From Azolla caroliniana (lineage: Eukaryota; Plantae; Polypodiophyta): DNA of 64,000 bases. Below are positions 2,495 through 63,651 of the stretch, piece by piece; the stretch's first letter is position 1; the number at the start of each line of letters is the position of its first letter. Made by a program: the position numbers and the translations under genes. The stretch covers positions 9,858,001-9,922,000 of the forward strand of contig JBHGNT010000004.1 in assembly GCA_043228905.1 (NCBI GenBank), given 5' to 3'. The notes under the pieces are model-generated. The model did not search any database and was not told the origin of the DNA. It saw nothing but the letters and a program-made list of their open reading frames with translations.

Positions 2495-2866
2495 TGTCAT
2501 GAATACATAAACATCATGGCTTGACCTGGGCTTGAACCCAAGACCTTGAAATACATAATCAAGAACCTAACCATTAAGATAACCTATGATCATATAAGAT
2601 GATAAAAGCTACTTCTTATAATACACTGATTATGGTAAATACTCTGGAACATTCTAGAACATTCTATAGGAACCTATAAATATAGACATGTACAATTCTT
2701 CTCAAACCAATTCGAATCAACACCAGTCTTAAGCTCTCATTAGCTATCTCGTATCCATTCTCATTCTATCTAATACATTCATTCTTCTCTTATCATTTCA
2801 TTCCTCTCTTCTTGTGATCTCTTTATATCTTTCTTCTGTCACTCTATCTTTCTCTTGGTTCTGACA
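2495..2866 (+). mobile_element. Chromovirus LTR, family A' (372 bp)
   Basis: TGTCA...TGACA ends, TATAAATA at 2675, followed by a self-complementary PBS (2869-2880) and a gag remnant. Confidence 0.8.
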
Positions 2867-3400: not shown

Positions 3401-5247
3401 AGTCATGATATGGCAATACTCGAACCCATGACCTTATGTTACATGGGTCGAGCTCTTGACCATTAGACTATTTGCTGTAATACAAAGGATATTATTTTCA
3501 TTTAAGTTTTACTATAGAAAATTGACATATATTCCAGATTTCTCTGGAACATTCTAGAAACTTCAGGAGTACTCCTGAGAAAAATATAAAAGGAGGTACA
3601 AGGAATTATTTCGAGCCAAATTGGTTCAACGCCAGTCTTAAGCCTCCTCCTAGCTACTATTGTATATTCTCTTAACATAATATATATCTTTTGTTATCAT
3701 CATTCTCTCTCTCGATCTCTCGATCTCACTCACTCTTTCCTTCTCTCGAGAGTTCTACACCTCCCTTAGTACTAATCCTCATCTTTTAGTACTAATTCTT
3801 TATGTGTCTTAGTACTGTTCTCTATCTTAGTACTGCTCCTGACAGTACTTCTCTTAGTACTGCTCCTGACAATTTGAACCGATTTTGCTCTCCTTCCTTC
3901 TCTTCCTTTATCTTCTTACTTCCCTCCCTTCATACTAATCTCTTATTAATCTTTTCTCTCATACTATGGCCATTGTTAGCGCTCAAGAATATCAATCCGT
4001 TTTTTAGGAGTTGCAATGCTTAAAAGAGAAGTTTCTGGCATTGGAACAAGAAAATCAACGACTATTGGGGGAGCTTCAACAAATCTCCTTAGAGAAGCAG
4101 CAGATGCAACAACAACACGGGGAACTAGCATTACACATGCAACAACTCGAAGCAACCATAGTAGCAATGCAACAACAAGGACCCAGTACGCAAGGGGTTC
4201 ATAAAGAACCCAAGATCGGTCTTCCCATGAAATTCGATGGAATGCGATCACAGTTTAGAAGATTCCTTAATCAAGTACGATTAGTCATTCAAATGCATCC
4301 TTCTCGAGATGCCACCAATGCATCACAAGGGGGTTTAGTAGGCACGTTGTTAAGTGGCTCAGCTTTGGTATGGTTCGCTCCATTGTTAGAAAAGGAATCT
4401 CCTTTACTAAACAATTTTGAAGAGTTTTTAAGTGAGTTTAAAGCTTGTTTTGGAGACACTGACAGCATAAGGACAACAATCAACAAAATCCAACGATTAC
4501 ATCAAGGTGATCGTCCAGCCTCCGCATACACTGCAGATTTTCACCTACTCGCCTCCAATATCCCCTGGGATGACCAAGCACTTATGGAGCAATTTCGTTA
4601 TGGTCTACATAACGATGTCAAGGATTTACTCTTGACCTTCCCCGAAGAACCAAAGTCATTGACAGAAGCAATCAGTCATGCGGTGAGATGCGACAATCGT
4701 CTTTTCGAACGACGTTCGGACCGTCAGTTCCAGATGCCAAGCGCAAGATCAGAGCTCACCTACGCCTCAGTGGTAGAAAAACCTTTTCCAAGGGAGTCAC
4801 ATAATGCGTCTCCAGTTAATACTCCAACTCCGATGGAAATTGACACTACACGTCGTCGCGGACCATTATCGGAAGAAGAAAAACAACAACGTCGAGCAAA
4901 TCGACTATGTCTTTATTGCAGTGGACTAGGGCATATTGCAGTGAACTGTCCCCATAGGCCAAGAAGATAGGTGAACCAAATAGTTGCTAGTCCTAATTGT
5001 ACTAAACCCAAGTCTATTTCAGTAGGAATATCTGATAGTCCTAATAGGACTAATAGTCCAAATCTATCAAACAAATTTGATGTCCTTAGTCAAATAGATG
5101 AAGAGTTAAACGATTAAGTCCAGCCAAAATAGGAGTCGTTTGGTTAGACAGCCCTAGATCTGTGCAGCTCATTAGTGGTTTCATTCCCTCTAAGCAAGTT
5201 AACAATGTGTTCTTAGCCCAAGTAACCGTTAGTACTAAAAGTACCTC
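3401..5247 (+). mobile_element. Family A chromovirus 5' half: LTR (3401-3871), PBS, gag (to 4970), start of pol
   Basis: LTR similar to 18128-18599 and 57720-58178. Gag has CCHC knuckle CLYCSGLGHIAVNC and a premature stop. The GTTAAAC frameshift cassette is retained at ~5105. Confidence 0.9.
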
Positions 5248-5253
5248 TAACCG

Positions 5254-6804
5254 TTAGTACAATTAGAACTAGCAATTATTTGGTTTACCTATCTTCTTGG
5301 CCTATGGGGACAATTTATTGTGATGTGTCCTGGTCCACCGCAGTAGAGACATAGTCGATTTGTTCGGCGTTGCTGCTTTTCTTCTTCGGATAATGGTCCT
5401 CGACGACGTGTAGTGTCAATCTCCATCGGAGTCGAAGTATTCACTGGAGGCACATTATAGTACTCCCCAGGTAAAGGTTTTGCTACCATTGAGGCGTAGG
5501 TGGGCTCTGATCTTGCCCTCGACATCTGTAGCTGTCGTTCCGAACGTCGCTCAAAGAGGCGGTTATCACATCTCACCGCACGATTGATTGCTTTTGTTAA
5601 GGACTTTGGCTCTTCAGGGAAAGTCAAGAGTAAATCCTTGACATCGTTGCGTAAACCATAACGAAATTGCTCCATCAACGCTTGATCATCCTAAGGGATG
5701 TCAGCGGCGAGTAGGCAGAAATCTGCAGCGTATGCGGAGGCTAGACGGTCTCCTTGGCGTAATCGCCGGATTTTGTTGATTGCGGTCCTTATGCTATCAG
5801 TATCCCCAAAGCATGCTTTAAACTCACCTATAAACTCTTCAAAGTTGTTGAGTAATGGAGACTCCTTTCCCAACAGTGGAGCGAACCATGCCAACGTTGA
5901 GCCACTTAATAGCGTCCCTACTAAACCCATTGGTGATGCATCGGTAGGATATCGGGAAGGATGCATTGAATAACTAATCGTACCTGATTAAGGAACCCTC
6001 TAAACTGCGATTGTGTTCCATCGAACTTCGTGGGAAGGCCAATCTTGGGTTCCTTATGAATCCCTTGTGTTCCGGGGCCTTGTTGTTGCATCGCTATGAT
6101 GGTTGCTTCGAGTTGTTGCATGCGTAATGCAAGTTCCCCATGTTTTTGTTGCATTTGCTGCTTTTCTAAGGAGATTTGTTGAAGATCCCCCAACAACCGT
6201 TGATTTTCTTGTTCCAAAGCAAGGAACTTCTCTTTCAAGCATTGAAACTCCGAGAAAACATATTGATATTCCCGAGCGCTAACTGTGGCCATGGGATGAA
6301 AAGAAAAGAAGAATAAGAGATTAGTATGAAGGTAGAGAGACAAAAGGGAAAATTGGTTCAAACTATCAGGAATAGTACTAAACAGAGAGAGAATTAGTAC
6401 TAGAGAAGGGAAGTACTATTAGAACTAAGAGGACGGGACTGCATAAGACTCCCAAGAGAGGAAGAGAGAAGAGGAGAGAGAGAGAGAGAGAGAGAGATAG
6501 AGAGAGAGATGATGATAACTGATTATATATTATAAGAAGAGTAAGTACAAAAGGTCTATGAGGCTAAAGACTGGCATTGAACCAATTTGGTTCAAGATAA
6601 TGCCTAGTGCCTCTTTTATAGTGTTCTCAGGAGTTATCTTGAAGCTTGTAGAATGTTCCAGAGAAATCTGGAATATACATTAATTTCCTATAATAAAATG
6701 TAAACAAAAATAATATCTTACGTATTACAATAGATGATATAATGGTCAGGAACTTGACCCATATAACCTAAGGTCATGGGTTCGAGTCTTGCCATATCAT
6801 GAGA
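5254..6804 (-). mobile_element. Family A chromovirus 5' half, inverted: LTR (6364-6804) and disrupted gag
   Basis: Minus-strand ORFs 5921-6361, 5691-5966 and 5289-5678 are successive gag pieces with a CCHC knuckle. The LTR is the reverse complement of family A. Confidence 0.9.
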
Positions 6805-8399: not shown

Positions 8400-11300
8400 T
8401 GTCATGGACAAGTATAATAGAGTAGAACAAAGATAAGACTAGAGAATAAGAGAGAGTAAAAGAACAAGAACTCAACTTATAGAACCTGTAACTTGTGTTG
8501 TTCACCTTGATTAGAATCAAGGTGCACATGAGTATTTATACAAGAAGGTAGGGCTATGTAAGACATCTAGAAATAGAGTATGCATGAGGATGCATGCAAG
8601 CTAGAAAATGAGAATACATGCAAGCTAGGAACTTCGAATGTTCAATCTACACTATATGAAGTTGAATTAAATGTAAGGATGCATATGTAGCTCAAGTGGT
8701 AGGGTTGCCCAATAGAGACCATGAGGTCTTGGGTTCCATCCCTACCTTCTTTCGTGGCATATGTCTATGACATTATCCTCCCTCTAAGGCCGCCTCCTAA
8801 CACCTGCCACCGGTTTATGGGGGTATCGTTGATGAAAAGCGCGAATTGCCTCCGGTGCATTTTGTAAATGTGTAATTGGTTCCCATGTGGCGTCCGAAAG
8901 AGGGTAACCTTTCCATAAGACCAGGTATTGAAGTCTGCTCGACGCAAGCGAGAGTCGAGGATTCAGTCAACCTCATACTCCTCACCTGTCGATAATTCCA
9001 CGGGCGGCGGCGGAGGAGGTTGTCGTCCCGAAATGTGAGAAGGATGATAGAGTTCGAGGAGAGAGACGTGGAAAACATTGTGAAGCCGAAATGTGGGGAG
9101 AAGCGATAACCGGAAAGCGACTGGGTTAACGCGCTCGAGGATACAGAATGGGCCTAGCTTTTAGTAGTCGAGCTTCGCATAGGGATGGGTGGTTGCGATG
9201 TGCCGACGTAGCAATCAAACCATGTCACCAACTGTGAAGGTCGGCACGACTAAGCGATGTTGGTCAACGTGAGCTTTATACTATTTGCCAATGGCACGGA
9301 GCTCGAGGGCGAGTTCACGATGAACATCTTGTAAGTTGTGGGCATGCTTCTCGGCCGACAGATTGATGGATATCGCCGGAATGGAAATGTTGAACCGAGG
9401 GTGGAAACCGTAATTTGCAAAGAATGGAGAAACCTTAGTTGAGGCATGGATACTGTTATTGTAGGCAAATTCCGCCATGGCAAGGAGGTCCACCCAATCG
9501 TCTTGTTGGTAGCTAACTATACACCGGAGGTATTGTTTGAGGATTTGGTTGACTCTTTCGGTTTGACCATCCATTTGAGGGTGGTGTGTGGTTGACAAGT
9601 TCACAGAAGTCCCGAATGTGAAGTCGGTGCCAAAAGTGGGAGATAAATTGAGGACCTCGATCAGAAGTGACATCCTCAAGCAAACCGTGTAACCAGACGA
9701 CATTTTTCTAGAAAAAGGGTAGTTGTCTCCTCCCCCAAAATGGTTTTCGAACATGGGACAAAGAAAGCCATCTTCGAAAACCGATCAACAACCACTAGCA
9801 CTGTCTCATTGTCACCGACTTGAGGAAGGTCGGTGATAAAGTCCATGGAGAGAGAAGCCCAAGGTCAATTGGGGATTGGAAGTAGGTGTAGAAGGTCGTA
9901 TGGACGATGGTGAGCCGCTTTGGAGCGATCACAGATGTCACAAGTTTTGATAAATTCTTTGACCAATTTCCAAGGTTGAGGCCACCAAAACCCTCGAGAA
10001 AGCAATGCCAACGTTTTGGCGACCCCAAAGTGTCCGACACAAGGATCATCATGGCGAGTTTGTAGAACTCGGAGGCGACATGGGCCAGCTGGTACTTAAA
10101 GGAGGTGATTACGATAGAGTGGCCCATCTTGAGTTCTAAAGTGACTGATATTATAGATCTAAGTACTAAAGTAAGCTTAAGATAAGGATAAAGTAATAAT
10201 AGATAGAAAGGAGAAAGAGAAAGAAGGGTGTCGATCCACCCGACCACCCCCGAGCGAAGGGATCGAGACGGACTCGAGCCTCGATCGGCGTCCCATACCA
10301 CCGTCGTGGCGTCGAGTCGTACCTGGTGCTGGCGCGCTCGCTACAAGAGTTGACCCACCACACGAGCAGAGTCTCGATGTAGTCAAAAGATGATCCAATG
10401 AGGGTAGCTAGGCCTCTTATTTATAGCGATACCCAAGGCCCCCAGGCAAGTTCACACTTGACCTAATGGGTTGTCTCAATCCCGAGGATTAAAAGTAATC
10501 CCCCCCTTCTTTACACTCTCGTTTAACCCTCACACTTATGCACGTGTATAGAATACTACGGTAAATTCTTACCACGGGATATTATATGGTCATGCCCGTA
10601 ACAACTGAGATCCGAGCTTTGCCTTTCTAGGGATAGGTTGTTGAGGCGCGCCATGATGTTAGTAGCGAAAGGATCCGAGCCTGCCTCTGATTCAACGTAC
10701 GAGTGGTGATGAAGTAGATGAGATTCTTGTGGTCAGTCACCACCTGAATACGATGTTGGGCCCCAGCCAGATAGGGTTGCCATTCAGCGAAGGCCGAGAT
10801 GATAGTTGCAAGCTCCTTGTCGTAGATCGGATAGTTGATTTCCGGGGTTGTAAACTTCCGAGAGTAGAAGGCGACCGGATGTAGGGTGCCATCGTCATCA
10901 GGCTGGGGCAAGACCGCACCTATGGCAAAGTCGGAGGCGTCGGTTTCAACCTGGAAAGGGCGGGTGGGGTCAGGGTGGACTAACAAGGGGTGGAGAGAAA
11001 AGTTGCTTTGAGGGCATTAAAAGCATTATGTGTTGCGGGGGTCCAAAGAAATGGAGTATCTTTCCCAGTAAGTTGGATGAGAGGTTGGACTAGGGAAGAG
11101 AACCTGTCTATAAATCGTCTATAAAAATTTGCAAAACCGAGAAACGATTGTACCTCTTTTAGCCAAGTAGGAAGAGGCCAATCAATGATTGCCACGACCT
11201 TGTGTTCATCCATTGTGATCCCTGTAGGTGAGATCATGTAACCTAGGAATTTGACAGAGGTCCAATCAAATTCACATTTCTCACTTTTGGCAAAGAGCCC

Positions 11301-17800: not shown

Positions 17801-18423
17801 TACATTCGGTGTTTCATAGTTCTCTCCTCGAACCCTATCAAGACAGCACCATGCCAGGTCGTATTAAACAACCTCGACCCCCTATTGAACTTGAAGATGG
17901 ACCTGAGTACGAGGTTGTCCCCATCCTCAATTCCAAGATTGTTCGCAACAAGCTGTACTATATAGTCTATTGGCTAGGATATAGTCCCAGCGAGCATACT
18001 TGGGAACCAATATAGAATGTCACCAATGCTCATGCTCTTCTTGAAGACTTCGATTGTGAATATCTAGACAAACCGGGTCCTCAATCCAAAACGATTCGTG
18101 ACACTCGTCGTTTTAAAAGGGGCATAGTTTCATGATATGGCAAGACTCGAACCCATGACCTTACGTTACATGGGTCGAGCTCTTGACCATTAGACTATTT
18201 GTTGTAATACAAAAAGTATTATTTTCATTCAAGTTTTACTATAGAAAATTGATGTATATTCCAAATTTCTCTAGAACATTCTAGAAACTTCAGGAGTACT
18301 CCTAAGAACACTATAAAAGGAGGCACAAAGCATTATTTCGAACCAAATCGGTTCAACACTAGTGTTAAGCCTCCTAGCTACTATTGTATATTCTCTTAAC
18401 ATAATATATATATTTTGTTATCA

Positions 18424-18460
<37 letters not shown>

Positions 18461-18599
18461 CACTCTCTCAATCACTCTTTCCATCTCTCGAGAGTTCTAC
18501 ACCTCCCTTGGTACTAATCCTCATCTTTTAGTACTAATTCCTAATGTGTCTTAGTATTGTTGCTGACAGTACTTCTCTGTCTTAGTACTGCTCCTGACA
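14871..18599 (+). mobile_element. Family A chromovirus 3' part: degenerate pol (PR-RT-RH-INT-chromodomain), PPT and 3' LTR (18128-18599)
   Basis: Collinear with intact pol with multiple stops; chromodomain EYEVVPILNSKIVRNKLYY; PPT aaaaggggcatag. Confidence 0.93.
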
Positions 18600-23602: not shown

Positions 23603-25218
23603 GTTGCTAATGCTTCAATGATCTCCTTGAGTAGAGAGTCCCCATGTAGCATGCATGTTGCAAAGATATGGAATTGATCTGCCTTTAAGAAACATTGGGA
23701 TTGTTGAGCATAGTCATCATCCCTTAGCTAGAGCTCAAATTCCAACCGTCGAGAAAGTTTCATCACCCTCCATGTGTTATTTCCTAGGAAAAAATAATAT
23801 TTTGAAGTCATAATCAACTAAAAAAGTGAACCGAGGAGCATGGCCCCGACTCAATGTTCAAGCGGTTGAGAAGTAGGGTGAATTCTTGTGATGTCAGAGA
23901 TTTAATGGAAGTGTCAAAATCCCCTTTCCAATTTATATTCACTCAATGTTCAGTAGGAATTCCCATCTTGTATGATAAGATGGTATTGGAGTTCCTTGGG
24001 TAGTGCAAATAGTGACATAATTGGCATGTGTTGAATGCCTTCATTTTTTTATACTCAAGGTGGGGTTCAAAAATACGTTTGACATTTAAAAGGCACAATC
24101 TCTAGGTAATTCTCCTTGGGGAGAATTCTAGGAGGTTGACATGAGGAGTTTGGGTTGTATAGATTTGCAATGCATTGTATATTGTCTCCGATATTTGCAT
24201 TGGTCGTAGTCCCTACATTTGATGATATAGGTCCATTATGAGATATACAAAGATGAGGAATGTATAAGGGGCACTCTATGCCTTTTGTGGTGGGTCAATA
24301 TGATATTCTATCCCTATTCATTTAATACATTAGACTAACCTTGTGCATCTACACATGGTTATATGATTTTAAAGGGCAACACTTACTATTTTTATAGTAC
24401 GAGAAGCTTATCCTAAAGAATAGAGAAAATAAAGCCATTTTGTGTCTTATTACATAATATTTTTTACTGACAAACTAGGTTGACATATTTTATTGAACCA
24501 AACTATGATTTACCAATTGGTACATAATGTCATTTGCATTAAAGCTACAAGAGTTTATCAGAATGTTGACTCTACATTTCAAGTTAGAAGCCAAAATGAT
24601 GATGTCATGCCAGTTGTGACTTAAGAGTTTAGATGACAATGGTTTGCGAGAAATAGATGTAGGAGTAAATTCATGAGAAACTATGCAAAGTTTCAAGAAG
24701 ATATCCCAAGGTTTTCTGTTATAATCTCCAACAATCGCATTAACATCGTATCTATTTGCAATGACTTTTGCAATGAGCCACACGGATGGGATATTCATTC
24801 GTCCATGACTCGAAATATCATAATCAGAATCCTGATCGTGGAGACCACACACACAACAGAGATGGTACATTGTTTTGGGGTTTGGGATCGTGAAGGTCAG
24901 TCAGCCTACTTATTTATTATCCTATGGATCGTACACAAATGCATATGTATGTACAACGTGAAGTAATGTGCTGAAATGATGTAGAAATGTAGTACATAAC
25001 AATATGGTTGGGGTTTGAAGTACATACATTGATACATAGCAACCACTCAACAACACGATGATGAGGAGGAAGGATATTATTTATTGATTGGAGGTCAAAG
25101 TGCTACTATTATTTTACACACAAACACACACATATAAATACATATACATGTTGCGGCTCCTTTGCAACAAACACGCAAATACCTCCAGACATACACACAC
25201 ACACACACACACACAACA

Positions 25219-26418
25219 ATGGCTTCTGCTGCTCATGCACTCATGTCTCTCATCAGAATGGTGATGGTGGCTTGCTTCTTCTTCGTCGTCTGTGTGCAAG
25301 CCCATCCTCAGCATGGCTTCTGCACCAGGACGCATGGCACCGCCAAGGGCTGCCCCACACCCCCAACCTTCGACGCCATCAACCTCACGGCCTTCGCGGG
25401 CAGTTGGTTCCAGATCGGTATCAGCGCCAGGTCCCAGTTCAGGGACCAACCCGGCTCCGTTTGCGCCCGCGCCAAGTACGAGCTAAGGGGCCACTCCCCT
25501 TCACACCAAACCCTCTTCTCCGTCCTCAACAGTGCCCTCTCCATCCTCCGCCCCGCTGGTGTGGCTGACATCTATTATGCCGGCACCACCTCCTTCGGCG
25601 TCTGTAACTCTGCCCGAAGCTCGTGCCACGTCATCGGCCACATCAATGACCATGCTCTTGAATTGCTCAAGGATCACCCCGCATTGTTGAAGAACGTGAC
25701 GGACGCCGCTAAAATTGGAGAGGCAGCACTAGATTCTGCGGCCGGGAGGATCGGCCACATTCAAGGCTATCTCAACCAGTTGAGTCAAGCCAATTACACG
25801 GTAAGTCTAGCAAACACCACAGAGAAGATGGAGGTAAATGCAGAGAAGCTTAAGGCGGAGGACGCTGGAGCTTTGCGGCTTGCAGGGAAGCTTCTGGAGG
25901 ATGCGGGGAGGAAGGTCGAGGCAATGCAGTCAATGAAGGCGGTGGGGAAGAAGATAAGGCTAGCAGGGAAAGAGCTGGTGAAGAGCGCGAAGAATATCGA
26001 GAAGGGTGCGATACAGCTGCGGAAGACGGCACGGTCGCTGGCCAAAGGCAACGGTAGATCGATCACGGTAGCACAAGGCGCCAAAGCGTACAAGGTGGAA
26101 GGCGAGGGAGTGCAGATTAAGGGAGGCAAGCTACAGGTGAAAGTGAAGGGGGAAGTGATTATGAAGCCATATTGGGTGCTGGCAGTGGACAGCCACAACG
26201 AAGCCGCGCTCGTGTATTCGTGCGTGAATGACAGCGATGGCAACATAGCGGAGAAATCCATCTTCATCATCGCCCGGTCGTGGAAACCCGACCCTTCGGT
26301 AGTGGAGGGTTTCCTGTCACTGGCCCAGTCATATGGCATCTCTTCAGACTGCGAGGATTCATTCTCCATGACCGTCCAGCGCGGTGGCTCTTGTGGACTT
26401 CCTCCCCATTCCATGTAA
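25219..26418 (+). CDS. Secreted ApoD-like lipocalin (399 aa) with large internal helical insertion; intronless
   Basis: Hydrophobic N-terminal signal ending VQA. Lipocalin motifs GCPTPP..FAGSWFQI, CARAKY, PYWVLAVD..ALVYSC, IFIIAR and a C-terminal Cys. Uninterrupted GC-rich ORF; ATG in aacaATGG context after a (CA)n leader. Confidence 0.85.
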   Translation: MASAAHALMSLIRMVMVACFFFVVCVQAHPQHGFCTRTHGTAKGCPTPPTFDAINLTAFAGSWFQIGISARSQFRDQPGSVCARAKYELRGHSPSHQTLFSVLNSALSILRPAGVADIYYAGTTSFGVCNSARSSCHVIGHINDHALELLKDHPALLKNVTDAAKIGEAALDSAAGRIGHIQGYLNQLSQANYTVSLANTTEKMEVNAEKLKAEDAGALRLAGKLLEDAGRKVEAMQSMKAVGKKIRLAGKELVKSAKNIEKGAIQLRKTARSLAKGNGRSITVAQGAKAYKVEGEGVQIKGGKLQVKVKGEVIMKPYWVLAVDSHNEAALVYSCVNDSDGNIAEKSIFIIARSWKPDPSVVEGFLSLAQSYGISSDCEDSFSMTVQRGGSCGLPPHSM

Positions 26419-27735: not shown

Positions 27736-28440
27736 ATATGGGCCAATATTAAAGAGGTGAATGAAGCAAAATTTTAACTTATGGGCCAAGGAAAATTTCA
27801 ACCCACGACCTCCACCTTTAGGAACATGACGATAATCACGTAGCTTACATTCAAAAGCCTTCTTGAAATACAATTTGCCCCGTGACAAGCTAGTATATTA
27901 TTTATATTGGCCAATATTAAAGAGGTGAATGAAGCAAAATTTTAACTTATGGGCCAAGGAAAATTTCAACCCACGACCTCCACCTTTAGCAAGACAAGCT
28001 AGTATATTATTTATATGGGCCAATATTAAAGAGGTGAATGAAGCAAAATTTTAACTTATGGGCCAAGGAAATTTTCAACCCACGACCTCCACCTTTAGGA
28101 ACATGACGATAATCACGTAGCTTACATTCAAAAGCCTTCTTGAAATACAATTTGCCCCGTGACAAGCTAGTATATTATTTATATTGGCCAATATTAAAGA
28201 GGTGAATGAAGCAAAATTTTAACTTATGGGCCAAGGAAAATTTCAACCCACGACCTCCACCTTTAGCAAGACAAGCTAGTATATTATTTATATGGGCCAA
28301 TATTAAAGAGGTGAATGAAGCAAAATTTTAACTTATGGGCCAAGGAAAATTTCAACCCACGACCTCCACCTTTAGGAACATGACGATAATCACGTAGCTT
28401 ACATTCAAAAGCCTTCTTGAAATACAATTTGCCCCGTGAC
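27736..28440. repeat. Higher-order tandem repeat: 277-bp period made of alternating 109- and 168-bp related subunits
   Basis: gacaagctag recurs at 27884, 27993, 28161 and 28270, with a truncated gaca at 28438; copies are near identical. Confidence 0.95.
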
Positions 28441-28966
28441 ATGTTACATGTGCAACACTTAGTGCACATTTAGTAGCCTCCCTAAAATAGAATTCTCCAT
28501 ATGGCACACTACATGTGCACCACATGGCACATATATTAGAGCATCCCGTCACTATAAAAGGAGTATAGTTATGGGGGATATCGTGAGATAAATTGAGATA
28601 TATAGGAAGAGAATGAGGAAGAAGAAAAAGGGTGGAGATGATAAAAATGATTTTCATGATAAGAAAAGGGCAAAGTGTTATGCCACTAGTTTATGGGGGG
28701 GTCTTGAAACGCACACAAAACATGAGTGAGATACACAAAGAGGATTTATATTTAATCCAAGAGAAACGCTTACAATATTCCCAAATTGAGACAAACCAAA
28801 AATGGTGGTTTGGGTGAGTCGTGACTAAGTCAAGGCGAATCGAGACTCAACTGAGAAAAGTCGAGACAACTCCCAAAACTATGTTGAGGGACAAGAGAAA
28901 GGTTCAATATTTACAATGGGTGAATGAAAATGAGGAGAAGCTCCTCTAATATATAGGCTAAGGGAT

Positions 28967-57290: not shown

Positions 57291-57719
57291 GTCATCCTCC
57301 CCTTCTTCTAGCCCTAACTCCAAGACTTGTTCACACTAGGATACAAAGTGGAAGGAGTCAGCCTTTTATGCCAACATTTCGTTCCTGTCTATAGGCTCAT
57401 ATAGGTCGCTGACTATCAGAAGATCCTCCATCTTGATCATCTAGTCTAAGTAGTTATGTGGGTTCAGGACTATCATTCCTGGAAAGCCACTCAAACCTCC
57501 TTCCATCTAGCACCTCTAGCTCTAATACCAATTTTTTACGTTTAAGACTGAAGATGAACAAGAAATATAGGTTGAAAAACATAGAACAGAAACTTAAAGT
57601 ACATGGCACACAAAATTTACGTGGAAACCCTAAAACAAGGAAAACCACGGGCAACAAATTTCACTAGGAGACAAGATTACAGAGATAGATTACAAATTTT
57701 TTCAAGCTTTCAAGGAGAA
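57291..57719 (-). mobile_element. Copia gag start, PBS and U5 part of a 5' LTR (the host site of the intact gypsy; the LTR continues after 63489)
   Basis: Minus PBS TGGTATTAGAGC at 57519-57530; gag MEGGLSGFPGMIVLNPHNY..KMEDLL; cccgtggtttt LTR motif. Confidence 0.75.
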
Positions 57720-57842
57720 TGTCATAACTAGACTCGAACCCATAACCTTTTGTTACACGGGTCGAGACTTTACCATTAGGTTATGAATTGTAATTTGAAG
57801 GATATTATTTTCATTTAGGTTTTATTGGGAAATTGATGTATA

Positions 57843-57902
57843 TTCCAGATTTCTCTGGAACATTCTAGAAACTTCAGGAGTATTCCTGAAGACACTATAA
57901 AA
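57843..57902 (+). promoter_or_regulatory. Extended heat-shock element followed by TATA box in LTR (second copy at 63149-63208)
   Basis: TTC/GAA triplets every 5 bp from 57843 to 57890 (7 of 10 perfect); TATAAAA at 57896. Confidence 0.85.
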
Positions 57903-58009
57903 GGAGGCGCAAGGCATTAGTTCGAACCAAATCGGTTCAACGCCAGTCTTAAGCCTTCTAACTACTGTTGTATATCTTCCTTCATATAATACATATATCT
58001 TTCGCATCA

Positions 58010-58045
<36 letters not shown>

Positions 58046-58180
58046 ACTCATTCCTTCTCTCAAAGTTCGACACCTCTCATAGTACTAATCCTTCTCTGTC
58101 TTAGTACTATTCCCCAACAATAGTACTAATCCTTCTTTTAGTACTAATTCCTTCTCTGCCTTAATAGAGTTCCTGACAGT

Positions 58181-58192
58181 TTGAACCGATTT
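58181..58192 (+). promoter_or_regulatory. Self-priming primer-binding site
   Basis: TTGAACCGATTT is the exact reverse complement of AAATCGGTTCAA (57929-57940), which lies 33 nt after the TATA; no TGG tRNA-type PBS is present. Confidence 0.88.
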
Positions 58193-58279
58193 CTGGGTGC
58201 CTGTCTGGTCTTTTCTCTCCCTCTTCCTTCTGTCTCCCTCCTTTCCTACTAGTCTCTTATTTCCCTTTTCCTTCATCCC

Positions 58280-59449
58280 ATGGCCACCGTTAGCGCTGAA
58301 GAGTATCAATCCGTTTTCTCGGAATTTCAATGCTTGAAAGAGAAGTTTCATGCTTTGGAACAAGAAAATCAACGCTTGTTGGGGGATCTTCAGCAAATTT
58401 CCTTAGAAAAGCAGCAAACGCAACAACAGCATGGGGAACTTGCGTTACGCGTGCAACAACTCGAAGCAACCATCGTAGCAATGCAACAACAAGGGCACGG
58501 AGCACAAGGGATTCATAAAGAACCCAAGATTGGCCTTCCCACGAAGTTCGATGGAACGCGATCGCAGTTTAGAGGGTTTCTTAACCAGGTACGGTTAGTT
58601 ATTCAAATGCATCCGTCCCGATATCCCACCGATGCATCACGAGTGGGTTTAGTAGGCACGTTGTTAAATGGCTCAGCATTAGCATGGTTCGCTCCGCTAC
58701 TAGAAAAGGAATCTCCAGTACTAAATAATTTTGAAGAATTCATAAGTGAGTTTAAAGCATGTTTTGGAGATACTGACAGCATAAGGACTGCAATCAACAA
58801 AATCCGGCGATTACGCCAAGGTGACCGTCCAGCCTCCGCATATGCTGCAGATTTCCGCCTACTCGCCGCTGATATCCCCTGGGATGATCAAGCATTGATG
58901 GAGCAGTTCCGCTATGGTCTACGCAACGATGTCAAGGATTTACTCTTGACTTTCCCTGAAGAGCCAAAATCATTAACAGAAGCAATCAGTCGAGCGGTCA
59001 GATGTGACAACCGCCTCTTCGAGCGACATTCGGAACGACAATTTCAGATGCCGAGGGCAAGATCCGAGCCTACCTATGCCTCAGTGGTAGCAAAACCTTT
59101 TCAAAGGGAGTCACATAATGCGCCTCCAGTAAGTACTCCAACTCCAATGGAAATTGACACTACACGTCGTCGTGGGCCGCTATCGGAGGAGGAAAAGCAA
59201 CGACGCCGAACAAACCGATTATGCCTTTATTGCGGTGGACCAGGGCATATCGCGATAAACTGTCCCCATAGACCAAGAAGGCAGGTAAACCAAGTCGTTG
59301 TTAGTTCTGACTATACTAAACCCGAGTCTATTTCAGTAGGAATCTCTGATAGTCCTCATAGTCATAATAGTCCTAATAGTACTAATAGTCCGAATCTCGC
59401 AAACAAATTTGATGTCCTTAGCCAATTAGAAGAAGAGTTAAACGACTAA
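58280..59449 (+). CDS. gag: Gag (389 aa): N-terminal coiled coil, capsid, CCHC zinc knuckle
   Basis: TPMEID motif, CLYCGGPGHIAINC; open frame. Confidence 0.95.
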   Translation: MATVSAEEYQSVFSEFQCLKEKFHALEQENQRLLGDLQQISLEKQQTQQQHGELALRVQQLEATIVAMQQQGHGAQGIHKEPKIGLPTKFDGTRSQFRGFLNQVRLVIQMHPSRYPTDASRVGLVGTLLNGSALAWFAPLLEKESPVLNNFEEFISEFKACFGDTDSIRTAINKIRRLRQGDRPASAYAADFRLLAADIPWDDQALMEQFRYGLRNDVKDLLLTFPEEPKSLTEAISRAVRCDNRLFERHSERQFQMPRARSEPTYASVVAKPFQRESHNAPPVSTPTPMEIDTTRRRGPLSEEEKQRRRTNRLCLYCGGPGHIAINCPHRPRRQVNQVVVSSDYTKPESISVGISDSPHSHNSPNSTNSPNLANKFDVLSQLEEELND

Positions 59450-62400
59450 GTCCAGCCAAAATAGGAGCCGTTTGGTTGGACATCCCTAGATCTGTGCAGC
59501 CCATTAGTGGTTCCATTCCCTCTAAGCAAGTTAGTGATGTGTTCGTAGCCCAAGTAGCAGTTAGTACAAAAAGTACCCCTCCAGTACATACCTTAGCCCT
59601 TCTAGATTCCGGAGCTAATTCTTGCTTCATGGATAGGAATTTTGCCCGAGCTCATCAGATATCTCTCAGAAAGCTCCCATGTCCAGCCTCAGTAGTAGTC
59701 ATTGATGGTCGTCCCATTGCTTCTGGTAATATCATAGAAGAGTCGGAACCCGTTAATATTGTCCTAGATAACTTAACATGTGTAGTATCATTTAATATTA
59801 TTAGTATTCCAGAACATCCCATAGTTTTAGGATTACCATGGTTCGAGTTACATAACCCAGACATAGATTGGAGGACAAGGGAAATCCGGTTGCGACAAAC
59901 CCAAGGATCTACCCAGAAGGTTGCAACCATTTCGCTACGTCAGTTGCGTGAGGAAGGGCGCAAGGAGGAAATGTTTCTCTTCGCAATATCAGTACAACCC
60001 TCCAACACCACCAAAGAGGAGTCCACCGTTCAACTTCCCGAGAAGTATCGTCAGTATGCTGATGTGTTCGATAAAGTACAAGCCAACACACTTCCTCATC
60101 ATCGGCCGTACGATTGCGCCATCGACTTACAACCGGGAAAAGAGCCGCCATGGGGGCCGATCTACAATTTGTCACCAACCGAGCTAGAAGTCCTTCGAGC
60201 CTATATAGAGGAGAATTTGGAGAATGGTTTCATTCGGCATTCGAAATCTCCAGCCGGCGCACCCATTTTCTTCGTCAAGAAAAAAGATGGCTCGCTTCGA
60301 CTCGTTGTAGATTACCGTGGCTTGAATAAGGTCACAGTAAGAAATAGGTATGCTCTTCCCCTTATCTCAAGTCTTTTAGAACGGATCAACGGTGCCAGGT
60401 TCTTCACGAAGATCGACTTACGAGGAGCCTATAACCTCGTACGGATCCGACCAGGAGATGAATGGAAGACCGCGTTTCGCACCAGATATGGGCACTTCGA
60501 GTATACGGTCATGCCGTTCGGACTCACTAATGCGCCGGCAGTCTTCCAGCACATGGCGAATGATATATTTCGAGATCTCTTGGATGATTTTTTGATCATC
60601 TATTTGGATGATCTACTGGTTTATTCAAAGACCCAAGAAGAACATGATTCTCATGTACTATTAGTACTAAAACGACTTCGAGAACATGGTCTGTATGCAA
60701 AGTTAGAGAAATGTAGTTTCGGGTGCAACCAAGTGGAATTTCTCGGCTATGTCATCTCCTCAGAAGGCATATCTATGGACCCAGCCAAGGTCAAAACGGT
60801 GATAGAATGGCACACTCCGCGTTCGGTGCGGGATGTGCAATGCTTCCTAGGCTTTGCAAATTTTTACCGGAAGTTCATACAAAATTACTCAAAAATTGTG
60901 CTGCCTCTCACACAGCTCACCAGGAAGGGACAATCATTCATTTGGTCTAAAGAGACGGACATGGCTTTCGAGAGTCTTAAGAAGGCGTTTACATCAGCTC
61001 CAATTTTAGGTCATGTGGATCCGGAAAAACCATTCATTATCGAAGCTGACGCATCGGATTTCGCATTGGGGAGCATTCTGTCACAACAGGGTAACGACGA
61101 GAAGCTACATCCTGTGGCTTTCCACTCCCGTAAGTTTGACGCCGCCGAAATCAACTACGAAATTCATGATAAAGAGCTATTAGCAATAGTTGATTCTTTT
61201 ATGCAATGGAGGCATTTCCTGGAGGGATCTCCTCATCAGGTCACTGTATTCAGTGACCACAAGAACCTTGCCTACTTTCAAGATGCTCGTGTACTGAATC
61301 GACGTCAAGCTCGGTGGGCCCACTTCCTCACACGCTTCGACTTCAAAATTACATATCGTCCGGGGAAGCACCAAGGGAAGGCAGATGCATTATCACGGCG
61401 TTCGTATCTAACACCACGTCCCGGTGAGCCAGCTTTCGATAACCAGAAGCAAGTAATCTTGGGTCCAGCACGACTGCAAGCAGCACAGGTCTTTGACATG
61501 CCCGTGGATTCCGACATTACCAATACTATACGTGAGGACTTGAAGACTGACGCTTTCGCCCAAGCTATACTAGCACAAATTGACCCCTCTCGAGCGTCAT
61601 GTTCACAATCACAATCACCAGGTACGGATTATCGGCAATTCAAATACTGTGATGGATTACTCTTCTTTAAAGAACTTTTGTATGTTCCTAATGGTTCTTG
61701 CCGCCTTCGAGTAGTACAAAATTGCCATGACACATATACAGCAGGACATTTTGGTAGTACTAAAACATTAGATTTAGTACAACGATCATTCTGGTGGCCC
61801 CGTATGCGACAATTTGTCGAAGATTTTGTTCGGGCTTGCGATACATGCTGCAGAGCGAAAATGCCAAGACATCATCCATATGGTTTATTAGAACCATTAC
61901 CAATTCCAAGCAAGCCATGGCAATCCATTGCTCTTGACTTCATTACAGATCTTCCAGTCTCTAAGGGATTCAGTGCGATTCTCACAGTGGTGGATCGATA
62001 TACGAAGATGGCTCATTTCTTACCCTGTACTAAAGAAATATCTAGTGAAGACACCGCCGAAATTGTCATGCGGGAAGTATGTCGGCATCATGGACTCCCT
62101 GATAATATCATCAGCGATCGTGGACCCCAGTTTGTGTCAAAATTCTGGAAGCACCTTTTTAAAATGCTGAAGGTCACTTGTAACCTCTCCTCCGGCTACC
62201 ACCCACAAACCGACGGTCAAGCCGAACGAACAAATCAAACACTGGAGCAGTATCTGCGGTGCTTTCTCAACTATCATCAGAATGACTGGGCAGATATTCT
62301 TCAGTTCGCCGAATTTGCCTATAATAACGCTATCCACGCATCGACTAAAGTCACGCCATTCTACGCTTATACGGGATATCATCCCCGGTGGTGTGTCCTT

Positions 62401-63033
62401 GAAACCCCAGAAGTGTCCACAAATCCTTGCGCGGAGGATCGTTTGGAGCGGTTACGCAAGATACAAGCGGATTTATCTACTCAACTCCAGCAAGCTCAAC
62501 AATCACACAAGGACTACGCAGATCGTCATCGACTTCCATCCAGTTTTAACATTGGAGATCGGGTGTGGCTGCTACGACGACACATCAAGACTACTCGCCC
62601 ATGTGAGAAGTTGGATTATCGGCGATTAGGTCCTTTCCGTATTATCGGGAAGATTAATGATGTCGCTTTTCGTCTCGAGCTACCTCCGCAACTTCGGATA
62701 CATCCGGTGTTTCATAGTTCTCTCCTCGAACCCTATCACGAGAGCACTATCCCAGGACGTACTATACAACCACCACCTCCTATCGAGCTCGAAGATGGAC
62801 CTGAGTATGAGGTCGCTGCCATCCTCGATTCCAAGATTGTTCGCAACAAGCTCTACTATCTAGTCGATTGGCTAGGATATAGTCCCAGCGAGCGTACTTG
62901 GGAACCGATCGAGAATGTGACCAATGCTCGTGCTCTTCTAGAAGACTTCCATCGACGATATCCCGAGAAACCGGGTCCTCAATCCAAAACGACTCGTGGA
63001 ACTCGTCGTTTTAAAGGGGGAATAGTGTCATAA
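59422..63033 (+). CDS. pol: Pol in the -1 frame (protease, RT, RNase H, integrase, GPY/F, chromodomain); probably expressed by -1 frameshift
   Basis: LLDSGA, YLDDL, EADASD, HDTYTAGH..CDTC, ISDRGPQF, LGPF, EYEVAAILDS..YLVDWLGY..TWEP. The frame is open from 59422 and overlaps the end of gag. Confidence 0.96.
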   Translation, partial: PIRRRVKRLSPAKIGAVWLDIPRSVQPISGSIPSKQVSDVFVAQVAVSTKSTPPVHTLALLDSGANSCFMDRNFARAHQISLRKLPCPASVVVIDGRPIASGNIIEESEPVNIVLDNLTCVVSFNIISIPEHPIVLGLPWFELHNPDIDWRTREIRLRQTQGSTQKVATISLRQLREEGRKEEMFLFAISVQPSNTTKEESTVQLPEKYRQYADVFDKVQANTLPHHRPYDCAIDLQPGKEPPWGPIYNLSPTELEVLRAYIEENLENGFIRHSKSPAGAPIFFVKKKDGSLRLVVDYRGLNKVTVRNRYALPLISSLLERINGARFFTKIDLRGAYNLVRIRPGDEWKTAFRTRYGHFEYTVMPFGLTNAPAVFQHMANDIFRDLLDDFLIIYLDDLLVYSKTQEEHDSHVLLVLKRLREHGLYAKLEKCSFGCNQVEFLGYVISSEGISMDPAKVKTVIEWHTPRSVRDVQCFLGFANFYRKFIQNYSKIVLPLTQLTRKGQSFIWSKETDMAFESLKKAFTSAPILGHVDPEKPFIIEADASDFALGSILSQQGNDEKLHPVAFHSRKFDAAEINYEIHDKELLAIVDSFMQWRHFLEGSPHQVTVFSDHKNLAYFQDARVLNRRQARWAHFLTRFDFKITYRPGKHQGKADALSRRSYLTPRPGEPAFDNQKQVILGPARLQAAQVFDMPVDSDITNTIREDLKTDAFAQAILAQIDPSRASCSQSQSPGTDYRQFKYCDGLLFFKELLYVPNGSCRLRVVQNCHDTYTAGHFGSTKTLDLVQRSFWWPRMRQFVEDFVRACDTCCRAKMPRHHPYGLLEPLPIPSKPWQSIALDFITDLPVSKGFSAILTVVDRYTKMAHFLPCTKEISSEDTAEIVMREVCRHHGLPDNIISDRGPQFVSKFWKHLFKMLKVTCNLSSGYHPQTDGQAERTNQTLEQYLRCFLNYHQNDWADILQFAEFAYNNAIHASTKVTPFYAYTGYHPRWCVLETPEVSTNPCAEDRLERLRKIQADLSTQLQQAQQSHKDYADRHRLPSSFNIGDRVWLLRRHIKTTRPCEKLDYRRLGPFRIIGKINDVAFRLELPPQLRIHPVFHSSLLEPYHESTIPGRTIQPPPPIELEDGPEYEVAAILDSKIVRNKLYYLVDWLGYSPSERTWEPIENVTNARALLEDFHRRYPEKPGPQSKTTRGTRRFKGGIVS

Positions 63034-63315
63034 CTAGACTCGAACCCATAACCTTTTGTTACACGGGTCGAGACTTTACCATTAGGTTATGAATTGTAAT
63101 TTGAAGGATATTATTTTCATTTAGGTTTTATTGGGAAATTGATGTATATTCCAGATTTCTCTGGAACATTCTAGAAACTTCAGGAGTATTCCTGAAGACA
63201 CTATAAAAGGAGGCGCAAGGCATTAGTTCGAACCAAATCGGTTCAACGCCAGTCTTAAGCCTTCTAACTACTGTTGTATATCTTCCTTCATATAATACAT
63301 ATATCTTTCGCATCA

Positions 63316-63351
<36 letters not shown>

Positions 63352-63651
63352 ACTCATTCCTTCTCTCAAAGTTCGACACCTCTCATAGTACTAATCCTTC
63401 TCTGTCTTAGTACTATTCCCCAACAATAGTACTAATCCTTCTTTTAGTACTAATTCCTTCTCTGCCTTAATAGAGTTCCTGACAGAGAAAGGCTCAGATT
63501 ACAGAAAATCCCTTCGTAGGGTTTTGGCAAGTTCCACAAAATTGTGCCGTCGCTCACTTTCTCTTCTACCTTTTGTAGCTTTTGAGTGACACAATAATAA
63601 TCATACATAATCATCTTTCCCTAATTCCATATATATAAGGTATTACTATTA

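What the first reader, a model, noticed from the sequence alone, without database searches (positions are those of the whole stretch)
57843..57902. Ten-unit in-phase heat-shock element abutting the TATA of an intact gypsy element
Seen: TTC-ca-GAT-tt-CTC-tg-GAA-ca-TTC-ta-GAA-ac-TTC-ag-GAG-ta-TTC-ct-GAA in perfect 5-bp phase, ending 5 bp before TATAAAA. The core GAAcaTTCtaGAA is also in LTRs at ~2647, ~3547, ~6645 (one mismatch) and ~18274. Established: alternating nGAAn arrays bind HSF trimers, and ONSEN (copia) is heat-activated through LTR HSEs. Inference: this is a heat-inducible, possibly currently mobile chromovirus, convergent with ONSEN in a different superfamily. Its LTRs could also make nearby genes heat-responsive.
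Basis: partly seen in the sequence, partly recalled or inferred. Interest (0 to 1): 0.72.

Follow-up and report, generated by a model that had tools for sequence, protein, structure and literature searches.

The report
Heat-shock promoter in fern gypsy retrotransposons
A very recently amplified jumping-gene family, in what is likely a fern, carries a conserved textbook heat-shock element just upstream of its TATA box, so the host's heat-shock factors likely switch it on, as already shown for a few plant and flatworm retrotransposons.

Summary
Observation confirmed: ten alternating nGAAn units (7 perfect, 4 of them in a row) end 5 bp before TATAAAA in U3 of an intact self-priming chromovirus (identical 459-bp LTRs, 5-bp TSD, open gag and pol). 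The self-priming site puts the predicted start 33 bp after the TATA. The exact 59-bp promoter occurs 520 times in the genome; four perfect units plus TATA occur 4,579 times (controls: 1 and 1). Across 26 elements, units 1-7 show purifying selection (5 inherited vs 22 post-insertion changes; background 119 vs 85; p=1e-4). Units 8-10 do not, so 'ten units' overstates the functional core. Two other LTR families keep in-phase arrays with different spacers; a fourth has none. Host small-HSP promoters use the same grammar. Heat induction, HSF binding and mobility are untested, and no RNA run was listed. The convergence with ONSEN is not new: HSE-driven Ty3 elements are validated in Macrostomum. My searches found none described for a fern or a plant Tcn1-like element. 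Against: unlike ONSEN, this HSE holds CHG sites, copies show a methylation footprint, and the moss chromovirus RLG1 is heat-repressed.

The parts
57843..57875 (+). HSE units 1-7, the conserved core; includes four contiguous perfect units at 57858-57875
   Evidence: Purifying selection: 5 inherited vs 22 post-insertion changes, background 119 vs 85, Fisher p=1.3e-4
57878..57890 (+). HSE units 8-10, in phase in this subfamily but unconstrained in the family
   Evidence: Unit 10 is GAA in only 10 of 26 elements; the three triplets show 12 inherited vs 3 post-insertion changes
57896..57902 (+). TATA box (TATAAAA)
   Evidence: the self-priming site lies 31-34 nt after its first base in all four LTR families
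57929..57940 (+). Predicted transcript 5' end (R) and self-primer, complementary to the PBS
   Evidence: Exact 12-nt complement of 58181-58192; pairs in the folded predicted transcript; covaries with the PBS across families
57720..58178 (+). 5' LTR, 459 bp, TG...CA; TSD GAGAA at 57715-57719
58181..58192 (+). Self-priming PBS
58280..59449 (+). gag, 389 aa (Retrotrans_gag, Ty3_capsid, weak zf-CCHC)
59437..59481 (+). Predicted -1 frameshift signal: heptamer in the gag frame, 6-nt spacer, 11-bp hairpin
   Evidence: same heptamer in 11 of the 12 fetched elements that the motif search matched
59422..63033 (+). pol, 1203 aa stop to stop: PR-RT-RNase H-INT-SH3-chromodomain with the three aromatic-cage residues
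63011..63025 (+). Polypurine tract
63026..63484 (+). 3' LTR, identical to the 5' LTR, with the second HSE copy at 63149-63196; TSD GAGAA at 63485-63489
2495..2866 (+). LTR of sister family B with a shortened HSE (four contiguous perfect units) and its own self-priming pair
3401..3844 (+). Older family A LTR with HSE at 3532-3579
6364..6790 (-). Older family A LTR, HSE with a broken sixth unit (ends approximate)
18128..18599 (+). Older family A 3' LTR with HSE at 18269-18301
8402..8772 (-). 3' LTR of related self-priming chromovirus family D, which has no HSE array (natural negative control)

Best explanation
The array is a conserved heat-shock element in the U3 promoter of a recently amplified, self-priming chromovirus in what is likely a fern, and it likely recruits host HSF trimers to drive the element's transcription under heat or related stress. 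Shown: sequence, phase, position, intact element, recent amplification, purifying selection on units 1-7. Inferred: two HSF trimers bind units 1-7, which end 20 bp before the TATA; RNA starts near 57929, where its 5' end pairs with the PBS and primes reverse transcription without tRNA; Pol is made by -1 frameshift; the chromodomain steers new copies into repeat-rich chromatin, where most become methylated. Untested: heat induction, HSF binding, heat-triggered insertion. My odds: functional HSF site 0.75, heat induction of some copies in vivo 0.6, heat-driven transposition 0.3.
For: Far beyond chance. 4,579 sites with four perfect units plus TATA versus 1 for the reversed pattern and 1 for 3-bp spacing; these counts reflect amplification, not independent origins. 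In 26 elements, units 1-7 carry few changes shared by both LTRs but normal numbers of post-insertion changes: triplets 2 vs 15 (p=2e-4), spacers 3 vs 7 (p=0.10). Families B and C have diverged LTRs yet keep 2-bp-spaced alternating units with other GAA..TTC spacers (B: CA, TA; C: AG, GG, TA; A: CA, AC, GC); perfect pairs at 2-bp spacing number 91 and 109 versus at most 9 at any other spacing. In family B, 17 of 18 measurable arrays fall in two length series with 10-bp steps (five are duplicates of one copy). Family D has no run of three perfect units in 20 of 20 loci. 16 of 25 fetched host HSP20 loci have such arrays upstream, 11 with a TATA 7-57 bp after the nearest array; none beats this one (best: 8 units with 5 perfect, or 4 contiguous perfect). 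The host has 10 HSF DNA-binding-domain matches. In Brassicaceae copia elements 4P elements went with up to thousand-fold heat induction (PMC5059998).
Against: Conservation covers the whole block, including the imperfect units 2 and 3, which never improve to GAA/TTC in the 26 elements; the triplet-versus-spacer contrast inside the block is small. Both ends of the array are perfect 7-bp inverted repeats that fold as DNA hairpins, and one copy (L222) shows a changed loop that looks like an inversion. All four CHG sites of U3 lie in the HSE, and post-insertion transitions are 3.5-4 times higher at CG/CHG than CHH, a methylation footprint; ONSEN's promoter lacks CG and CHG (PMC3907296). The moss chromodomain gypsy RLG1 is repressed by heat shock (PMC7466625); I could not see its LTR. 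Subfamilies with weaker units 8-10 also have identical LTR pairs, so the extra units are not needed for recent activity. The host has class-B-like HSFs too (class label recalled).
Confidence: 0.65

Rival explanations
1. HSFs bind the array, but the output in the plant is not heat induction: it serves basal or developmental expression, another stress, or class-B HSF control, or methylation blocks the heat response in nearly all copies.
For: CHG sites inside the HSE and a methylation footprint. Moss RLG1 is expressed in unstressed protonema and repressed by heat (PMC7466625). Marchantia HSFB1 also controls development (PMC9516188, abstract). An HSF with an LFGV motif is in the host.
Against: 4P elements predicted heat induction well in ONSEN and TERESTRA (PMC5059998), and HSE mutation abolished heat response of a Macrostomum Ty3 LTR (PMC12801592). 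Units 4-7 hold no CG and only one CHG, at their edge.
Confidence: 0.2
2. The block is kept as a palindromic or 10-bp tandem structure, or as a site for another dimeric factor, and resembles an HSE only because TTCTAGAA repeats do so automatically.
For: Two 7-bp hairpins, -10.8 kcal/mol as DNA. Spacers and imperfect units are conserved too. Family B arrays are tandem 10-mers.
Against: Families A, B and C share the 2-bp-spaced alternation but not the spacers. The 3' hairpin (units 7-10) is the unconstrained part. Position relative to the TATA matches host small-HSP promoters.
Confidence: 0.12
3. A neutral chance motif carried along by amplification of one successful family.
For: Genome counts are inflated by copy number. 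A bare four-perfect-unit array arises about 0.12 times per 64 kb by chance.
Against: Selection test p=1.3e-4; the 33-nt windows over units 1-7 are among the least changed in the LTR, tied with the self-priming region; retention in three diverged LTR families.
Confidence: 0.03

Closest known systems
ONSEN/COPIA78, TERESTRA, COPIA37 (Brassicaceae Ty1/copia; PMC3907296 and PMC5059998, passages read)
   Same: Four or more adjacent nGAAn units in the LTR promoter; young copies with identical LTRs; predicted use of host HSFs.
   Different: Here Ty3/gypsy with chromodomain and self-priming; likely fern host; thousands of HSE-TATA copies versus eight full-length ONSEN in Col-0; the HSE holds CHG sites; nothing tested in vivo.
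HSE-bearing Ty3 elements of Macrostomum lignano (Mag, CsRN1, Gmr1/Osvaldo clades; PMC12801592, abstract and second half of Results read)
   Same: Ty3-superfamily LTRs with canonical HSEs; there HSE mutation abolishes heat induction, so convergence with ONSEN across superfamilies is already in print.
   Different: Animal host and other clades than chromoviruses; induction shown there, only inferred here.
Tcn1 clade of Tf1/Sushi chromoviruses (moss and lycophyte elements; PMC6317226, PMC2864245, PMC3350952, passages read)
   Same: PR-RT-RH-INT-chromo order, aromatic-cage chromodomain, self-priming PBS, 5-bp TSD, LTR of about 450 bp.
   Different: PMC6317226 found plant Tcn1 only in mosses and club-mosses; this host is likely a fern. 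The passages read mention no HSE. Moss RLG1 is heat-repressed (PMC7466625).
Cryptococcus TCN3 (Ty3/gypsy) and S. pombe Tf1 (PMC12810828, PMC6314160, passages read)
   Same: TCN3 was recovered only at 37 C and has two putative HSEs; Tf1 is heat-induced and carries a stress enhancer that acts on adjacent genes.
   Different: The fungal HSEs are only putative; Tf1 targets promoters, whereas these copies mostly land in repeats.

Membership tests
Canonical 4P heat-shock element | At least four adjacent alternating nGAAn units in 5-bp phase | tested here: met
   57858-57875; definition from PMC5059998
Canonical 4P heat-shock element | Lies just upstream of the TATA and start of the unit it controls | tested here: met
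   Core ends 20 bp before the TATA; predicted start from the self-priming pair at TATA+33; start not mapped on RNA
Canonical 4P heat-shock element | Evolutionary constraint on the GAA/TTC cores | tested here: met
   Units 1-7 triplets 2 inherited vs 15 post-insertion, p=2e-4; not met for units 8-10
Canonical 4P heat-shock element | Bound by HSF and required for heat induction | not testable with these tools
   Needs EMSA, DAP-seq or a reporter
ONSEN-type heat-activated retrotransposon | Transcript and extrachromosomal DNA rise under heat | not testable with these tools
   Needs heat-treated RNA and eccDNA data
ONSEN-type heat-activated retrotransposon | Promoter free of CG and CHG | tested here: not met
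   U3 holds 3 CG and 4 CHG, all four CHG in the HSE; ONSEN feature from PMC3907296
ONSEN family itself | Ty1/copia domain order | tested here: not met
   RT-RH precede INT, chromodomain present
Tcn1 clade chromovirus | Ty3/gypsy order with C-terminal group I chromodomain (aromatic cage) | tested here: met
   PF00385 hit; Y, W and Y cage residues read off the translation against PMC3350952
Tcn1 clade chromovirus | Self-priming PBS instead of a tRNA PBS | tested here: met
   12-nt complement to R; covaries across four families; feature from PMC6317226
Tcn1 clade chromovirus | RT groups with reference Tcn1 elements | tested here: inconclusive
   The 49-row tree has no named Tcn1 reference; families A, B and D fall outside the seed-plant clade at an unresolved base with fungal and vertebrate elements
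Autonomous, recently active element | Identical LTRs, TSD, open ORFs, many near-identical copies | tested here: met
   present-day mobility not tested

The most novel reading that the evidence does not exclude
One fern chromovirus lineage captured a strong HSE early, kept it under selection through several family splits while a related family uses another promoter, and now uses the host heat response to power an ongoing burst. Its roughly 4,500 HSE-TATA modules outnumber the host's own small-HSP promoters about a hundredfold, so heat would both mobilise a plant gypsy element directly and flood the genome with competing HSF sites.
Probability: 0.2. Interest if true: 0.7.

Novelty: new member of a known kind. 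Interest (0 to 1): 0.42.

Why it matters
If heat induction holds, it extends HSF hijacking to a self-priming plant chromovirus outside the seed plants, at very high copy number, with a selection signature and a built-in HSE-less relative as control. It would give a direct test of whether heat drives genome expansion in a fern and whether thousands of TE-borne HSEs affect the host heat response. The principle itself is established (ONSEN, Macrostomum), which caps the surprise.

Tried and rejected
Expression: no RNA holder listed. Laying four guessed-RNA runs gave only short, low-depth contigs of related copies, with no silent-stretch control and unknown conditions, so it says nothing on expression. 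In one search the 40 listed variant positions included none in 57830-57879, but 48 rows were hidden, so I do not count it. Link to moss RLG1/RLG2: published qPCR primers matched only once, at 4 mismatches, so whether heat-repressed RLG1 has this HSE is open; the paper's figures and Tables 1 and 3 were not seen. HSE in distant relatives: among 52 metagenome loci, 12 close relatives whose contig reaches the promoter carry the array; the other close ones end early or lack the LTR; distant loci showed no array by a TATA after pol in what printed, but LTRs were not delimited and about four rows were cut. These contigs may come from the same or a near species. Family C: no RT recovered, sampled copies look non-autonomous, so its place in the tree and whether its HSE arose separately are open. 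'Ten units matter': rejected. My recollection that rice Go-on is gypsy was wrong; it is copia. My first guess of a moss host was dropped. Dropped rows in the selection test: of 28 elements fetched from the HSE-blind list, L242 and L243 (one LTR found) and L239 (38 differences, probably not one element); 25 plus the window element remain; the second LTR of L220 was located from the HSE-based list. PMC3978060 held nothing on HSEs.

Full report
Observation. The ten triplets are at the stated places in exact 5-bp phase and end 5 bp before TATAAAA at 57896. Seven are perfect and four perfect ones are contiguous. Shuffles of the LTR never gave more than 6 units (2 of 3000); 25 shuffles of the window gave at most 7 units with 3 perfect. 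Five other LTR-like stretches of the window that I scanned have no array.

The element. It spans 57720-63484 with identical 459-bp LTRs, TSD GAGAA, a PPT, open gag and an open 1203-aa pol frame with PR, RT, RNase H, integrase and chromodomain. Pol lies in the -1 frame behind a heptamer, 6-nt spacer and 11-bp hairpin (frameshift inferred). The 12 nt at 58181-58192 are the exact complement of 57929-57940 inside the LTR and pair in the folded predicted transcript. This is the self-priming arrangement that PMC6317226 (passages) gives for Tcn1 and Tf1/Sushi elements. It puts the predicted start 33 nt after the first base of the TATA. The pair covaries across four LTR families at offsets 31-34, so this TATA is very likely the true promoter and the array lies in U3 right before it. 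Named RT-RH homologues with single-domain scores reach 55-58% in fungi and vertebrates and about 43-52% in seed plants and algae. The tree makes families A and B sisters (100/97), with D apart, but holds no Tcn1 reference, so I call it Tcn1-like.

Host and scale. The genome has 523 Mb and at least 22 large contigs. The best named full-coverage matches of a host small HSP are ferns at 85-86%. The host has 10 HSF DNA-binding-domain matches and 33 HSP20 matches. The exact 59-nt HSE-TATA stretch occurs 520 times, mostly as pairs about 5.3 kb apart among the 100 listed. Four perfect units followed by a TATA occur 4,579 times against 1 for the reversed pattern and 1 for 3-bp spacing. 13 of 35 element LTR pairs, from several subfamilies, are identical over the U3-R part compared. 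These counts show amplification, not independent origins.

Is the array under selection? I picked elements with a pattern anchored outside the array and compared changes shared by both LTRs, which likely passed through replication, with changes in one LTR only, which arose after insertion. In 26 elements units 1-7 show 5 versus 22, background 119 versus 85, Fisher p=1.3e-4; triplets alone 2 versus 15; spacers 3 versus 7, not significant. Units 8-10 show no constraint: unit 10 is GAA in 10 of 26. So the constrained element is units 1-7, ending 20 bp before the TATA. Caveats: gene conversion between LTRs would blur the two classes, and three of 28 fetched elements were dropped.

Comparison across families. 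Three or more contiguous perfect units precede the TATA in 27 of 30 older family A loci, 26 of 26 scorable family B loci (of 30), 24 of 26 scorable family C loci (of 30), and 0 of 20 family D loci (the first five B and first five D loci are segmental duplicates). Spacers between GAA and TTC differ by family while TTC-TA-GAA is nearly fixed. Family B arrays change length in 10-bp steps within two series. Family D carries CATGCA repeats instead. 16 of 25 fetched host HSP20 loci have arrays of the same grammar, none stronger.

Results against. The block is conserved as a whole, imperfect units included. Its ends form DNA hairpins. All four CHG sites of U3 are in the HSE, and transitions after insertion run at 0.10 (CG) and 0.09 (CHG) versus 0.026 (CHH) per site, so copies are likely methylated; ONSEN lacks such sites (PMC3907296, passages). 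The moss chromodomain element RLG1 is repressed by heat, while RLG2 is induced (PMC7466625, passages and supplement legends). For host genes: 24 of 30 young copies have flanks that match repeats in at least two other fetched loci. This copy sits next to a decayed copia RT, likely inside that element's LTR; a DUF247 ORF starts 3.7 kb downstream on the same strand and an MCAfunc gene lies about 8-11 kb upstream.

What is known. HSE-driven activation is proven for ONSEN (PMC3907296) and, by HSE mutation, for Ty3 elements of Macrostomum (PMC12801592, abstract and part of Results). 4P elements went with the strongest induction in Brassicaceae (PMC5059998, passages). Cryptococcus TCN3 (gypsy) and Tcn12 have putative HSEs and move at 37 C (PMC12810828, PMC9942834, passages). 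Tf1 is heat-induced (PMC6314160, passages). A review lists heat-induced gypsy elements in pine, Cryptomeria and bamboo (PMC9780303, passages). Rice Go-on is copia (10.1101/317479, passages). The listings of searches showed no paper on an HSE in a fern retrotransposon or a plant Tcn1-like element; the library lacks most subscription papers and I read only the listed titles and abstract starts for most hits.

Verdict. It works like ONSEN by inference but is not ONSEN: other superfamily, other priming, methylatable promoter. The sequence case for a functional HSE is strong; heat induction and heat-driven mobility remain to be shown. New member of a known kind, interest 0.42.

Noticed in passing
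window 59437-59481: Likely -1 frameshift signal at the gag/pol overlap: heptamer, 6-nt spacer, 11-bp hairpin with a one-sided G-U/A-U change among copies.
   Followed up: partly
window 8402-8772 (-) and L256-L275: Family D promoter has repeated CATGCA (RY-like, label recalled) motifs instead of an HSE; may respond to B3-type factors.
   Followed up: partly
L186-L215 (for example L196/L197, L207/L208): Family C: self-priming LTRs with an HSE and short non-coding interiors, apparently non-autonomous; PPT resembles family D.
   Followed up: partly
window 2495-2866 and 8402-8772; G000 C4 8.77-9.87 Mb: The left part of the window recurs at 97-99% identity several times on the same contig: a segmental or tandem duplication.
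   Followed up: no
L006, L007, L012 (G000 C2 12.25-12.28 Mb): Cluster of about ten young LTRs, three with the same 3' flank, spaced about 3.2 kb: a tandem array of young elements.
   Followed up: no
L222, 5' LTR: The loop between the first inverted repeat of the HSE differs from the 3' LTR in a way that looks like a micro-inversion.
   Followed up: no
window 46794 to about 49200 (+): Host gene with MCAfunc domain (MCA-like channel), the only host gene I found in the window.
   Followed up: no
G000 C9 17.89-18.26 Mb (L162-L181): Cluster of about 16 small-HSP genes, most with HSE arrays.
   Followed up: partly
window 25138-26418 (+): 426-aa open frame with no Pfam match, near a 277-bp tandem repeat at 27736-28566.
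   Followed up: no
P0035: A 75%-identical relative of this pol carries a dUTPase domain (PF00692).
   Followed up: no
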